Shown piece by piece: positions 19,361 to 42,811 of a stretch of 64,000 nucleotides of DNA. The stretch lies in the NCBI GenBank assembly GCA_041484665.1, contig JBGPIA010000010.1, positions 32,001 to 96,000 of the forward strand, in the 5' to 3' direction. The notes beneath the pieces are model-generated. The model was not told the DNA's origin and did no database searches. It saw only the letters and a list, made by a program, of their open reading frames with translations. Every line of letters starts with the position of its first letter. Positions within the stretch are counted from its first letter, which is position 1. A program made the position numbers and the translations under genes. This DNA is from Candidatus Krumholzibacteriia bacterium (GTDB lineage Bacteria > Krumholzibacteriota > Krumholzibacteriia > JAJRXK01).

Positions 19361-20419
19361 TCACATGCGCGAGCCCAGGAAGCCGGACAGCACCACCAGC
19401 TCGTCCTCCCCCGCGTCGGCGCCGGAGCCGCCCTTGCCCTGCGCGGAGTGCTCGGGCTGCACTTCGCGCACGAGATCCGCGGATGTGATATTCGCCGGGT
19501 CGATCGGCTTGAAGGCGAAGCGGCCGTTGACCGGCTTGGACGACTCGGTGGCGGGCTTGGATGAGCCGCTCGCGGGCTTGGACGACCCGTTGGCCGGCAG
19601 CGCCGCCCCGCTCCGGGTACGGCCGGCGGCGGGTTGCGGCCGCGCGGGCTCGTCCACCACCGGCGTGAAGACCCTCGACGGCGTCTCGCGCGCGCCCGAC
19701 AGCAACGCGTCGAGCGTCCGCTGGCGCAGCTGCATCGCCGCATCGACGAAAGCCTGCAGGTCCCCGCGGTACGCCGGGCGCAGCGAGTGCACGATCGCCT
19801 TCTGGCGGTGCAGCTCCAGGTGGAGCTGGACACCCGGACTGGAGGGGGTCACCGCGGCGACGTGGGAGAGCAGCTGTGGCGCCAGCGCCGCGGCGCGAGC
19901 GTCCATGCGCGTGGGGTTGACCTCCCACGTCAGGCGCAGGCGGCGCGGAGGGCGCGGGCGGCCGCGCATCGCTGCAAAGACCGACCCGACGCGACGCAGC
20001 AGCGCGCCGAAGCCTCGCGCATCGTCGTCGTCGATGTCGCCGGCAGCCCGGCGCACGGGCTCGATCCGGCAGTCTTCCAGCCCCTGGATGCGCGTCTCGA
20101 AGAGCAGCGCGTGATGCCGGGTCCCGGCCACCCTGCGCATGCAGATGTAATACGTTCCGTGCGGGTCGCTGCCCAGCAGCAGGTCCTCCAGCTGCACGCG
20201 GTGCTCCTCGCCGCGGTACACGCGCGCGATCTCCCCGGCCCGCTCTGGCACGTGATCGGACAAGAGCGTGAAGCCGCGCTTGGCGGCGAACATGCGCAAC
20301 GCAATCGTTCGCGCAGCCGCCTGCTTCGCGCGGCGCGCGGCGATTACGTTGCGCACGATGATGAGGAACGCTCCGACAGCGACGCCGAACGCGATTCCCG
20401 TCAAGAGGGTCGCGGACAT
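19361..20419 (-). CDS. Hypothetical protein with N-terminal membrane anchor
   Basis: GGAGAG RBS, hydrophobic N-terminus and globular core. Three 21-bp SSKP repeats at 19531-19593. Confidence 0.65.
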   Translation of the reverse strand: MSATLLTGIAFGVAVGAFLIIVRNVIAARRAKQAAARTIALRMFAAKRGFTLLSDHVPERAGEIARVYRGEEHRVQLEDLLLGSDPHGTYYICMRRVAGTRHHALLFETRIQGLEDCRIEPVRRAAGDIDDDDARGFGALLRRVGSVFAAMRGRPRPPRRLRLTWEVNPTRMDARAAALAPQLLSHVAAVTPSSPGVQLHLELHRQKAIVHSLRPAYRGDLQAFVDAAMQLRQRTLDALLSGARETPSRVFTPVVDEPARPQPAAGRTRSGAALPANGSSKPASGSSKPATESSKPVNGRFAFKPIDPANITSADLVREVQPEHSAQGKGGSGADAGEDELVVLSGFLGSRM

Positions 20420-20762
20420 GGATGGTGCTCTCCAGAAACGACTCGGCTTCCGTCCCTGGCTGTCCACGGCACGTGCAAGAGGCGTGCGCGGTCGCCGCAG
20501 CCGCACGGCCCTCTGCGCGGTGGGCCGCAAACAGCCGGCGCGTGGCCCGCAATGCCTCGGGCGTCGCTGCGGCGCCATACCGCAACGCGGCCGGTCCGGG
20601 TGCCGGCAAGGACGAGCGCGCGGTGGAACCAACGGCGCCGTTCTTCCGCCGCGCGCAGCGGTGCGGGCGAACGCGGCACCGTCCGGGCGCGGCGCCAGCG
20701 CGTTTCGTTCGCAAAACGCCGTCAGGGACCGCCCGCGCCCGCGCGCAGGCGGCGTGCTGCAG

Positions 20763-21028
20763 GCCCCTTGGCCGGTGGAGCCCCGCCCGACGTCCTCGCC
20801 CCACGGCATCCTGCTGGTTGCAGCACAACGCTGACAGCCCCCGGCTCCACGCGCTCTCCGAGCGACTCTCCGCAGCCCGCCGGCCGATTCCTGGGTTCAT
20901 CGGCCGGCGGGCGAGGACTGTCGCGAGGGGAGCGCGTGGAGGCCGGGGGCCTGTGCAGGTCATGCTGCTTCAAAGCGGTGGCTGCGGGGCTGCGGAGTGT
21001 CTCGCGGGGGCTCCACCGGCCAAGGGGC
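20763..21028. other. Long intergenic rod-like inverted repeat; candidate structured ncRNA or hairpin element
   Basis: Perfect stems 20763-20784/21007-21028 (22 bp), 20845-20856/20930-20941 (12 bp) and 20875-20888/20899-20912 (14 bp), plus shorter stems, all on one axis. Confidence 0.8.
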
Positions 21029-21237
21029 GCGGTCACGAGCGCTGCTCGGATCGCTGGCCGCCCGGGCGCGCTGCCCTGCGCGGCGCTCGTGGCTGCGCTG
21101 CAAGCGCGGATTCGGCGGCGAAAAGCGCTGCGGCCGAGATGCCGCTTTACAGCGCGCGCGCGCCGGGGTATTCCATCCACGGGCCTGATCCGACCGCGGG
21201 CCGCTCGCCATTCCACCCTGCCGCCGTTGGAGCCGCC

Positions 21238-21465
21238 ATGGAGACCGTCCGCCACCAGATGGCTGCCAGTGTCGAGCCGTTTGCTGCCATCGATGCCGAC
21301 AGCTCGCCCGTGCCCTCCGGGATCCTCGCGGCCTCCTGCCGCCCGACGCACAGCGCGGACTTCAAGCGCACGTGCCCGAATTGCGGGACGGCGCTGTTCG
21401 ACCGGCAGTGCAAGAGCCGCTGCCCGCGCTGCCACTACTTCAGCGACTGCTCGGATCCCTGGTAG
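21238..21465 (+). CDS. Small CPxCG-type zinc-finger protein
   Basis: GGAG RBS; CPNCG...CKSRCPRCHYFSDCSD. Confidence 0.7.
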   Translation: METVRHQMAASVEPFAAIDADSSPVPSGILAASCRPTHSADFKRTCPNCGTALFDRQCKSRCPRCHYFSDCSDPW

Positions 21466-21507
21466 TCGCCCGGCTGGGCTGGGCCCGTCGCGGCGCGGCG
21501 CGGGCAC

Positions 21508-22218
21508 TCATGCATCCAGCTCGTACGCCGCCTTCAGCCACCGCTTCACCTCGTCGTCGATGTCCGCGAGCGCGGTGATCGGGATCCGGTGGGTGATGCG
21601 GTCCTTCTTCTGATAGCCACCGGTGTCGATCAAGCGCCCCTTCGCCTTCGTCGCCCCCAGGGCGAACCCCAGATCGATGCGCGTTCGGGTCGCGGGCTTG
21701 ATCTGGGCGAAGACGTGGTTGCGGTAGAGCGGCACGATCGTCTAGCACGGGCACACCCGGACGTCCTTGCCCTGCGCGCGACCCAGGCGCAGCAGCGCGC
21801 CGTAGAGCGGCCGCAGGCCCGCTTTCGATCCAGCGAACATCGCCTCGACGTGCTTCGCAGCGGCTGCCAGATAGGCCTGCGGATCACCGTCCTCCAGGCC
21901 TTTGCCCTCCGCCCGCGCGGCGAGCCACCCGGCGGCATTCGTGCCTAGCCCGTGCTCCCGCTTGAGCCAGTCGCGGCGCGCTGGCGCCGTGGACGGCCCG
22001 TGCTTGCGCACGAGCTCGAGCCACTGCGCAAGGCTGCGACCCGTCCGCTCCGGAAGGGTCGCGACCCAGTCCTGCACCATGGCCACGCTGGGATGGACAT
22101 CGTAGGAAGCGGGCTTCGCGGCAGAACTGGAGTTCGAGGCAGAGCGGGGGTTCACGGCCGCCCTGGAGGCGGCCTTGGTCGTGGGTGCAGCGGCTGCCTT
22201 GGACGCTCTCTTGGGCAT
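21508..22218 (-). pseudogene. DUF4287/DUF5655-like protein interrupted by one in-frame TAG at 21742-21744 (nonsense allele, sequencing error or readthrough)
   Basis: ORFs 21742..22230 and 21508..21735 are in the same frame: ...LPERTGRSLAQW...DVRVCPC*TIVPLYRNHVFAQIKP..RIDLGFAL...WLKAAYE. Confidence 0.75.
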
Positions 22219-41515: not shown

Positions 41516-42811
41516 ATGCGCACTTGGAGAACGCTTGCGGCGCGCGGGGGTGCTCCCGCGCTGGCGGTGGCGGTGGCGCTGTCGCTGTGGCCCGCGGTGG
41601 CCCCGGATGCGCCGCGCGCGCAGAACCCGTTCCTGCAGCAGCGCGACGCCAAGCGCATCCAGCAGATCTCCATCTTCGGCAATCGCGTCACCAAGGAGTA
41701 TGTGATCCGGCGCGAGTTGCGCTTCCACGAGGGGGACGTGTACGACGCAGAGGCCGTCGCCTCCGCGTGGGAGCGCCTGGAGAAGCTCGACTTCATCTCC
41801 TACGTGGACATCCAGGAGAAGCAGCCATCGCCCGGCGAGGTGATCCTGGTCATCCAGGTGGAGGAGGAAGGCCGCCTGTCCTTCATTCCGGGCACGTCCT
41901 ACGACGATCGCTACGGCGGCGTGAGCCTGGAGGCGCGGGCGCTCTATCGCAATTTCCGCGGGCACGGCGAGGTGGTGGAGCTGGACGCCTCCTGGCTCAA
42001 GCTACACGCCTTCCGCCTGGGTTGGACCAACCCCTGGATCCTGGGGCGGGCACACCTGGGCGTATCGCTGGACGGGGAGTGGAAGCGCTACGACTTCCGC
42101 TACGAGCCCTTCCACTTCGAGGAGCCCAGCGGCCAGATCGCCGTCTGGCGCGACCTGGGCCGGTGGGCGCGGGCGACCACCTCGTTCGCGTATCGCAACG
42201 AGCGCATCGACGACAGCGAGCAGCCCGCGGCCTTCCCCGACCACACGATCGTCGACCCGGTGCTCGCGCTGCGTCTGGAGCACGACAGCCGCGACCTGCG
42301 CTACTACCCGCGCAAGGGCGTCCACGCGGTGGCCGAGGTGCGTTACGGCGCGCTGGGCCAGGGGCGCCCGTACACCACCTACGAGGGGCTGTTGGCCGGC
42401 TTCTACGCGGTGCCGGTGGCTGGCATCCTCGCCGGCCGCATCGACTACCACGCCAGCAGTACGGCGTTGCCATTCTACGAACGGGCCTACCTCGGCGGCG
42501 CGGAGAACCTGCGCGGCGTCGACTTCGGCCGCGTGCGCGGCGACGAGAGTTGGCTGGCCACCGTGGAGCTGCGCAAGCCCCTGTTCCTGCTGCCCCTGCG
42601 CGAGGGGCGCACGGTGGGGCTCGGCCTGCATGCCTTCCATGACTGGGGCAAGGCCTGGGCGCACGGCGCGGGCTTCGACAGCGCGCCGGTGCGTTGGTCC
42701 TGGGGCGCGGGCGCCCACCTGAACGTCAACATCGCCAATCTGCGCTTCGAGTGGGTGCGCAACGACCTGGGCGTGGATTCGTTCGTCTTCGAGGACCGCT
42801 TTACCTTCTAG
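41516..42811 (+). CDS. Omp85-family protein with a single POTRA domain
   Basis: IFGNRVTKEYVIRREL, RNFRGHG, GGAENLRG, FHDWGKAW and terminal F. Confidence 0.88.
   Translation: MRTWRTLAARGGAPALAVAVALSLWPAVAPDAPRAQNPFLQQRDAKRIQQISIFGNRVTKEYVIRRELRFHEGDVYDAEAVASAWERLEKLDFISYVDIQEKQPSPGEVILVIQVEEEGRLSFIPGTSYDDRYGGVSLEARALYRNFRGHGEVVELDASWLKLHAFRLGWTNPWILGRAHLGVSLDGEWKRYDFRYEPFHFEEPSGQIAVWRDLGRWARATTSFAYRNERIDDSEQPAAFPDHTIVDPVLALRLEHDSRDLRYYPRKGVHAVAEVRYGALGQGRPYTTYEGLLAGFYAVPVAGILAGRIDYHASSTALPFYERAYLGGAENLRGVDFGRVRGDESWLATVELRKPLFLLPLREGRTVGLGLHAFHDWGKAWAHGAGFDSAPVRWSWGAGAHLNVNIANLRFEWVRNDLGVDSFVFEDRFTF

What the first reader, a model, noticed from the sequence alone, without database searches (positions are those of the whole stretch)
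20763..21028. ~270-nt non-coding rod-like inverted repeat in an ~820-bp gene-free gap
Seen: nested stems share one symmetry axis (coordinate sums 41786-41791). They are GCCCCTTGGCCGGTGGAGCCCC / GGGGCTCCACCGGCCAAGGGGC (22 bp perfect), GCAGCA/TGCTGC, GCCCCCGG/CCGGGGGC, CTCCACGCGCTC/GAGCGCGTGGAG, GCGAC/GTCGC and GCCCGCCGGCCGAT/ATCGGCCGGCGGGC, closing a 10-nt loop. The stems are separated by roughly symmetric internal loops. It is far too long for a terminator and lies between divergent genes. I cannot match it to SRP, tRNA, tmRNA, RNase P or a riboswitch. Inference: an undescribed long dsRNA-like ncRNA (possibly a 6S-like decoy or an RNase III substrate leader for the downstream Zn-finger gene), a DNA cruciform site, or a MITE with 22-bp terminal repeats.
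Basis: partly seen in the sequence, partly recalled or inferred. Interest (0 to 1): 0.75.

Follow-up and report, generated by a model that had tools for sequence, protein, structure and literature searches.

The report
Nested hairpin repeat with self-copied stems
The long hairpin is one of six nested copies in this genome of a small mismatched-hairpin repeat found after genes across the phylum, whose long stems mirror neighbouring DNA (sometimes a gene's end), so it is likely a DNA repeat that copies its own arms rather than a new RNA gene.

Summary
The rod is real (z about -12; no Rfam family) but not unique. The genome holds six such 270-460-nt rods plus four single units, all intergenic. 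Each rod nests two oppositely oriented copies of one 'head', TCC-TC-GCSC...GSGC-TGC-GGA, whose mismatch is kept. The stems between heads differ between copies (63% identity) yet pair perfectly (118 of 120 cells Watson-Crick). The head occurs in 53 of 208 phylum genomes (303 matches against 15 for the reversed control; up to 31 per genome), normally as one hairpin just behind a stop codon. There one arm is often an inverted copy of adjacent DNA, including real gene ends (pstB, pgi, ahpC, terB). Equal G-T and A-C counts, GNA-type triloops and orientation flips point to DNA, with arms made or equalised by fold-back copying. I found no target duplication, no REP tag, no attC boxes and no linked transposase. 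Verdict: an undescribed REP/REPIN-like family; its spreading enzyme and any function are untested. The scan already noted this genome's copies (e1-7053359) and similar architectures in other phyla; the phylum-wide range and gene-end mirroring of this family are new here.

The parts
20763..21028 (.). Whole nested double-head rod (one of six in the genome; 77-85% identical to the other five)
20763..20784 (+). Outer perfect stem, left arm (copy-specific sequence)
21007..21028 (+). Outer perfect stem, right arm (exact complement of the left arm)
20793..20802 (+). Outer head, half A (TCC-TC-GCCCC)
20986..20996 (+). Outer head, half B' (GGGGC-TGC-GGA); pairs with A leaving the conserved 2x3 mismatch
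20808..20836 (+). Left loosely paired junction zone (88% identical between copies; its right partner, about 20951-20980, only 68%)
20837..20856 (+). Middle stem, left arm (partner 20930-20950); co-varies between copies
20930..20950 (+). Middle stem, right arm
20909..20917 (-). Inner head, half A, read on the minus strand (flipped relative to the outer head)
20869..20878 (-). Inner head, half B', read on the minus strand
20875..20912 (.). Apical 14-bp stem and 10-nt loop; left arm 98% identical between copies
19361..20419 (-). Left neighbour, 352-aa ORF, no Pfam or NCBIfam family (context only)
21239..21465 (+). Putative 75-aa Cys-rich ORF; no homolog found, may not be a gene (context only)

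Best explanation
The rod is a nested, two-headed member of a phylum-wide intergenic repeat family that likely acts as folded single-stranded DNA, REP/REPIN-style, and whose long stems are likely made and kept perfect by one arm being copied from the other. Shown: a conserved mismatched head, copy-specific perfect stems, arms that mirror adjacent host DNA including gene ends, and in this genome a second head set inverted inside the first. Inferred: when the strand is exposed during replication or transcription the head folds, the new strand snaps back or switches template and copies 25-110 nt of flank as an inverted repeat, and later switches overwrite mismatches near the head while the head's own mismatch is kept because a trans-acting protein would read it. 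Inferred: in this lineage one head landed in the loop of another, giving a rod with a correct head on each strand, and that composite then spread as a unit to six sites. The enzyme that spreads heads is not identified. Any effect on neighbouring mRNA ends would be co-option.
For: Multicopy and intergenic: 6 double rods, 4 single heads, 2 half remnants. Outer 20-bp stem: 63% identity between copies, 118 of 120 cells Watson-Crick, 104 of 112 pairwise left-arm differences matched by a Watson-Crick change on the right; 23 of 111 pairs change on both sides, 0 of 500 shuffles as high (kin are not independent). Head in 53 of 208 phylum genomes, 303 matches against 15 for the reversed control, 0-31 per genome (totals summed by hand from its table); the variable head position is paired in 77 of 77 heads counted, 52 G:C and 25 C:G, although the pattern allowed unpaired combinations. 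Mirroring of coding DNA: 11 of 14 chosen gene ends match the far arm with at most 3 of 1000 shuffles as high; 7 of 9 upstream ORFs scanned have a Pfam family. At orthologous sites the head stays while the stem sequence turns over (C, E) or the head is flipped (D). DNA signs: 43 G-T against 43 A-C oppositions among 1835 Watson-Crick pairs in 49 stems; 31 of 40 short loops read C-GNA-G on the opposite strand (the stability of GNA triloops in DNA is recalled, not from a call). Template switching is known to equalise inverted-repeat arms in bacteria (PMC5941160, passages); REPIN spacers differ between copies yet keep pairing (PMC3337134; PMC3116915).
Against: No mobilising gene is linked: Y1_Tnp 0 in the own genome, 20 of 208 genomes, 0 of 27 loci with a head, and only 1 of the 22 genomes with 4 or more heads; DUF222-HNH 1 of 30 loci, the seed itself; IS91 Y2 transposases (12 hits) and two integron integrases are in the genome but not beside a copy. 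No empty site or excision joint was seen in 8 runs. Heads persist at orthologous gene ends across a genus and face with the upstream gene (29 against 8), which fits a host RNA role as well. The window copy itself shows no mirror beyond its 22-bp stem (46 of 200 shuffles as high). Three of the 14 gene ends were not mirrored, and most of the 14 were picked because they looked mirrored.
Confidence: 0.55

Rival explanations
1. Host-maintained mRNA 3'-end element: the head plus long stem works as RNA (stabiliser, factor-dependent terminator or RNase III site); double heads serve two convergent transcripts.
For: A stop codon of a long frame lies within 70 nt on the A side only in 29 heads, on the B' side only in 8, on both in 11, on neither in 18 of 66 (orthologs are not independent). 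Orthologous positions are kept across five species of one genus (C). Four of six double rods lie between convergent genes. TTCG at the apex resembles the RNA UUCG loop (PMC2864571 passage).
Against: G-T equals A-C in stems; full pairing needs a 3-nt loop, not a UUCG tetraloop; heads occur antisense inside a ribosomal operon (L132) and flip between relatives (D); no terminator-like site at the window copy; copy number runs from 0 to 31.
Confidence: 0.25
2. Classical MITE moved by a DDE transposase through terminal inverted repeats.
For: Dispersed, intergenic, 77-91% identical 270-nt copies with inverted ends.
Against: The ends are among the least conserved parts (63%); best flanking direct repeats 0-6 nt, inside the random range; single heads elsewhere have site-specific arms.
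Confidence: 0.06
3. Single-strand initiation or primosome-assembly site used on the chromosome.
For: The ColE1 region near position 1332 shares short words with the purine-rich strand of the head; ssiA is a single-stranded motif read by PriA (PMC3167613, passages).
Against: The ColE1 words pair differently; that this region is ssiA rests on recall; gene-end placement is not explained.
Confidence: 0.05
4. Stand-alone structured ncRNA (6S-like decoy) or leader of the Cys-rich ORF.
For: Very stable rod on either strand.
Against: No Rfam match; no sigma-70-like promoter; the ORF is unsupported; six copies lie beside unrelated genes; the minus strand folds as well as the plus strand.
Confidence: 0.04
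5. attC-like recombination site for the genome's integron integrases.
For: Two integron integrases above cut-off are in the genome; attC also uses fixed unpaired bases on a folded strand (established knowledge); one block in G109 is bracketed by two like-oriented heads (B).
Against: No RYYYAAC/GTTRRRY pair on either strand of 9 regions tested; neighbours are housekeeping genes, not cassette arrays.
Confidence: 0.04

Closest known systems
REPINs (REP doublets forming hairpins; Pseudomonas fluorescens SBW25; PMC3337134, PMC3116915)
   Same: Extragenic, dispersed, long hairpins; copy-specific sequence that keeps pairing; conserved motif pair in inverted arrangement; patchy between relatives.
   Different: The conserved part is a mismatched head at the tip and the variable part is the base (the reverse of REPINs); arms mirror host flanks; tens, not hundreds, of copies; no RAYT found; nested flipped heads.
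REP/BIME, GTAG- and CGTC-tagged repeats and TIRYT-associated TIRs (PMC3733652, PMC6006769, PMC8266576)
   Same: Placement behind stop codons and between convergent genes; a conserved mismatch in the stem, as in E. coli REPs where the bulge is needed for TnpA-REP activity.
   Different: No conserved GT[AG]G at a fixed stem foot; much longer stems; no Y1 transposase beside or co-occurring with heads.
Quasi-palindrome template switching (Ripley model; PMC5941160)
   Same: Explains Watson-Crick-only co-variation and arm equalisation at the DNA level.
   Different: A general mutational process, not a family; it would erase the head mismatch, which is kept here across five families.
Bacterial MITEs (ERIC, Correia, RUP, bcr1; as listed in PMC3733652)
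   Same: 70-300-nt non-coding dispersed stem-loops next to genes.
   Different: No conserved terminal repeats and no target duplication.
Integron attC sites
   Same: Folded single strand with fixed unpaired bases and variable stems, behind stop codons (established knowledge).
   Different: No R boxes; no cassette arrays.

Membership tests
REP / REPIN | Multicopy, extragenic imperfect palindrome | tested here: met
REP / REPIN | Conserved GTAG/GTGG (or CGTC) tag unpaired at the stem foot | tested here: not met
   GT[AG]G positions differ between copies and none is common to the stem feet; CGTC occurs only inside the paired outer half A
REP / REPIN | Cognate RAYT/Y1 transposase flanked by the repeat | tested here: not met
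   0 in own genome (93.65% complete); 0 of 27 Y1 loci carry a head; many of these loci are short contigs
REP / REPIN | Copy-specific sequence with compensatory pairing | tested here: met
REP / REPIN | Excision or transposition seen in a population | tested here: inconclusive
   no skipping joint in 8 contig-only runs; contigs drop rare variants
MITE | Conserved terminal inverted repeats | tested here: not met
   outer stem 63% identical between copies against 93-96% for the heads
MITE | Target-site duplication | tested here: not met
   0-6-nt repeats, within the random range; the ends are ill-defined and no empty site was at hand
attC site | RYYYAAC ... GTTRRRY boxes on one strand | tested here: not met
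   9 regions, both strands
attC site | Integron integrase in the genome | tested here: met
   TIGR02249 above cut-off on C53 and C34; not near any copy
6S RNA / Rfam ncRNA | Match to an Rfam covariance model | tested here: not met
   only generic hairpin hits below gathering
6S RNA / Rfam ncRNA | Discrete transcript | not testable with these tools
   no RNA holder listed
Intrinsic terminator | Short GC stem followed by a T run | tested here: not met
   0 sites in 20300-21600
IS91 end (ori/ter) | Similarity to the ends of the genome's IS91-type elements | tested here: not met
   module HMMs find no hit at Y2 loci at E up to 5

The most novel reading that the evidence does not exclude
A class of bacterial mobile hairpin that carries only a small mismatched head and builds its own stem at each site by fold-back copying of the target (an inverted target duplication instead of a direct one), without any Y1 or DDE transposase. 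The same head duplex also occurs circularly permuted in phage contigs from other lineages, which would fit a closed single-stranded intermediate. The two-headed rod would be a derived form that presents a working head on either strand.
Probability: 0.3. Interest if true: 0.82.

Novelty: new variant of a known kind. Interest (0 to 1): 0.6.

Why it matters
If heads really write their stems by copying the flank backwards, this is a way for non-coding repeats to spread and to create long perfect palindromes behind genes without a known transposase. It would also explain why such hairpins show strong 'covariation' that RNA-discovery screens could mistake for conserved RNA structure. The family gives a concrete, testable substrate (a 20-nt head conserved across five families of one phylum) for finding the protein that reads it.

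Tried and rejected
Exact-pattern scans of whole collections with the own-genome wording found only chance hits inside coding frames or without a stem: viral 1, metagenome 3, genome contigs 3, checked. The wording was too narrow, and the single metagenome and genome scans were thereby spent, so the range outside the phylum is only sampled. BLASTN and a sequence-only model found no full rod in 40 relatives and 9 family members; the structure-aware module model R2 was what reached other families. Hits in families f3 and f6 and in G007 had no stem and are treated as chance. The nested arrangement pattern gave 6 matches in the own genome and 5 single matches elsewhere against 3 for the control; I did not fold those five. 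A loose permuted pattern inside the phylum was at control level. Leading/lagging strand could not be assigned: GC skew is too weak. No RNA holder listed. No empty allele in 8 runs. Flavo-1 is a different motif. The TIRYT motif GGGGWSAS occurs 1336 times in the genome and is uninformative. L114 (two convergent paralogs) was excluded from the mirror evidence. Neighbour genes across the 75 loci clustered showed no recurrent nuclease or transposase apart from one DUF222-HNH family, which then failed the test. Ten literature searches listed no description of this head; most subscription papers and bioRxiv supplements are not searched.

Full report
Observation. The rod folds far better than shuffles as RNA on either strand (z -12.2 and -13.1) and as DNA (z -10.6), with 0 of 200 shuffles as good each time. 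Rfam gives nothing near a gathering score. Logan contigs of two other runs match both arms without differences, so the arms are not an assembly artefact. The right-hand 'Zn-finger gene' has no support in five searches, so the divergent context is uncertain.

It is a repeat. The genome (5.45 Mb, 69.5% GC, 93.65% complete) holds six full rods: the window copy, C2:305555, C6:57915, C22:49347, C5:111999 and C3:109443, 77-91% identical over about 270 nt. It also holds four single units (C2:732.6k, C5:78.55k, C5:78.7k, C5:95.0k) and two half remnants (C14, C15). The nine main loci are intergenic, beside genes that read as dnaK, dnaJ, dtd, lexA and a pitrilysin-like protein (names from my reading of the translations); four of the six rods lie between convergent genes.

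Anatomy. The conserved unit is a 'head': half A (TCC-TC-GCSC) pairs with half B' (GSGC-TGC-GGA) and leaves a fixed 2x3 mismatch. Each rod has an outer head on one strand and an inner head on the other. The longest rods carry a decayed third layer. Heads and apex are 93-96% identical between copies; the outer stem is only 63% identical. Yet 118 of its 120 cells are Watson-Crick, with one G-T and one A-C, and 104 of 112 pairwise left-arm differences have the matching right-arm change. On the whole alignment 23 of 111 pairs change on both sides, with 0 of 500 shuffles as high (six related copies, so not a probability). No target duplication exceeds chance.

The head is phylum-wide. A covariance model of the single module hit 4 of 150 other genomes, in four other families. 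The relaxed head pattern matched 53 of 208 phylum genomes, 303 matches against 15 for the reversed pattern; 22 genomes in five families have 4-31 copies (summed by hand). Single hits in f3, f6 and G007 lack a stem and are chance. In 77 of 77 heads counted the variable position is paired, 52 G:C and 25 C:G. Outside this genome the usual form is one hairpin, a head on a 20-60-bp stem unique to the site. The nested two-head form was found only in this genome (6 matches; 5 single matches elsewhere against 3 controls). The phylum is unnamed in my calls; an earlier scan note calls the organism probably Krumholzibacteriota, which I did not test.

Stems are copied from the flank. Among 52 heads with a scored stem, 42 have a long frame ending on the A side, and in 24 of these the arm alignment runs at least 9 nt into it (unvalidated frames included). 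For 14 gene ends, most chosen because they looked mirrored, the last 48 coding bases match the far arm with 0 of 1000 shuffles as high in 9 cases and 2-3 of 1000 in 2 more; 3 were not mirrored. Pfam places seven of nine scanned upstream ORFs in ABC-transporter (read as pstB), PGI, AhpC, aminotransferase (read as kbl), DMT and TerB families. A conserved protein end cannot derive from the repeat, so the other arm is the copy. The match is perfect near the head and decays outward. Behind ahpC the head is at the same place in five species of one genus while the stem sequence differs each time (C). In G109 the arm matches DNA that in G110 lies on the B' side, so copying can run either way (B). In G183 and G194 the head faces opposite ways in the same spacer (D). 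In this genome three rods (C2a, C22, C5c) have an extra outer mirror that reaches a neighbouring stop codon (0 of 200 shuffles), while the window copy has none (46 of 200). The idea of testing for copied flanks was prompted by scan note e1-1313706.

DNA or RNA. In 49 stems G-T and A-C oppositions are equal, 43 and 43, among 1835 Watson-Crick pairs, so no strand is favoured as RNA selection would predict. Of 78 distinct pattern hits, 40 have short loops, and 31 of these read C-GNA-G on the opposite strand; full pairing needs a 3-nt loop. That GNA triloops and G-A mismatches are stable in DNA is recalled knowledge. Against this, heads face with the upstream gene (29 against 8; 11 both, 18 neither), and UUCG is known as an RNA-stabilising loop (PMC2864571, passage). 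No RNA run holds the stretch, so expression is untested.

Wider range. A related wording with the two halves in the opposite order occurs in three phage contigs (L176, L177, L179), one of them as an inverted dimer forming a long rod. A shorter shared cap sits in an inverted dimer on a Ralstonia megaplasmid. Rfam has no model for these. The link to the family rests on shared words and is a lead only.

Search for the enzyme. Y1 transposases: none in this genome or in five high-copy genomes; 20 of 208 genomes overall, 0 of 27 loci with a head. IS91 Y2 transposases (12 hits), one IS110, two integron integrases and ten tyrosine-recombinase hits are present, none beside a copy. A DUF222-HNH gene is bracketed by two heads in G018, but only that one of 30 loci has a head. 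So the mobiliser is not identified.

Mechanism and membership. The best-supported reading is a REP/REPIN-like DNA repeat whose arms are made and equalised by fold-back or template-switch copying, with the head mismatch preserved. It works like a REPIN, but it is not a REP, REPIN, MITE or attC by the defining features tested. Papers seen: PMC3733652 (part 1 of 8 and passages), PMC3337134 (parts 1-2 of 3), PMC3116915 (passages), PMC6006769 (outline and section 12), PMC8266576 (passages), PMC5941160 (passages), PMC9723704 (passages), PMC2864571 (passages and supplement passages), PMC3167613 (passages). Ten searches listed no paper on this head; the library lacks most subscription journals.

Verdict. 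A real, multicopy, apparently undescribed hairpin family; the window copy is a lineage-specific nested form. New variant of a known kind, interest 0.6. The scan has noted this genome's copies before and similar architectures in other phyla; those notes are unchecked and are not counted as support.

Noticed in passing
window 21508-22218 (-): A DUF4287 gene reads on in frame past a single TAG at 21742-21744 into a plausible C-terminal domain; a Logan contig of run X3 has the same letters. Pseudogene or read-through.
   Followed up: partly
window 21029-21080: A second, smaller hairpin directly abuts the rod's right end; both outer flanks faintly resemble the junction zones, possibly a decayed third layer, but the mirror test is not significant.
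   Followed up: partly
G000 C10:97952-98082, C10:152007, C11:44969, C13:5652, C15:100011, C17:92190, C24:39019, C31:18761, C34:5471: A second dispersed repeat of about 135 nt with an AT-rich central palindrome of 2 x 18 bp, about nine copies; looks like a recombinase binding site.
   Followed up: no
G000 C20:42202-43066: Ten parS-like palindromes within 870 bases (the parS label is recalled).
   Followed up: no
G000 C6, C28, C39 and many contig ends: Heavy load of IS91-type (Y2) elements, 12 hits, many fragmentary; two integron integrases on C53 and C34.
   Followed up: partly
L131 (G109:C26:28279 and 32635) against L130 (G110): Two like-oriented heads with nearly identical stems bracket a 4.3-kb block where the sister genome has one head; possibly integration into, or recombination between, heads (B).
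   Followed up: partly
L133 (G018:C12:59487-60825): A DUF222-HNH gene lies between two like-oriented heads and its last codons are mirrored in the downstream stem; the family is multicopy in many phylum genomes.
   Followed up: yes
L179, L176, L177, L211: Circularly permuted head and a shared cap in phage contigs and a Ralstonia megaplasmid, some as inverted dimers forming rods of about 200 nt; no Rfam model for the phage loci scanned.
   Followed up: partly
L132 (G183:C20:7980 and 14455): Heads inside the ribosomal protein cluster, one after rpsJ in sense and one before rpsH in antisense orientation.
   Followed up: no
G000, 16 copies of a 29-nt repeat: A CRISPR-like direct repeat family among the commonest 22-mers.
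   Followed up: no
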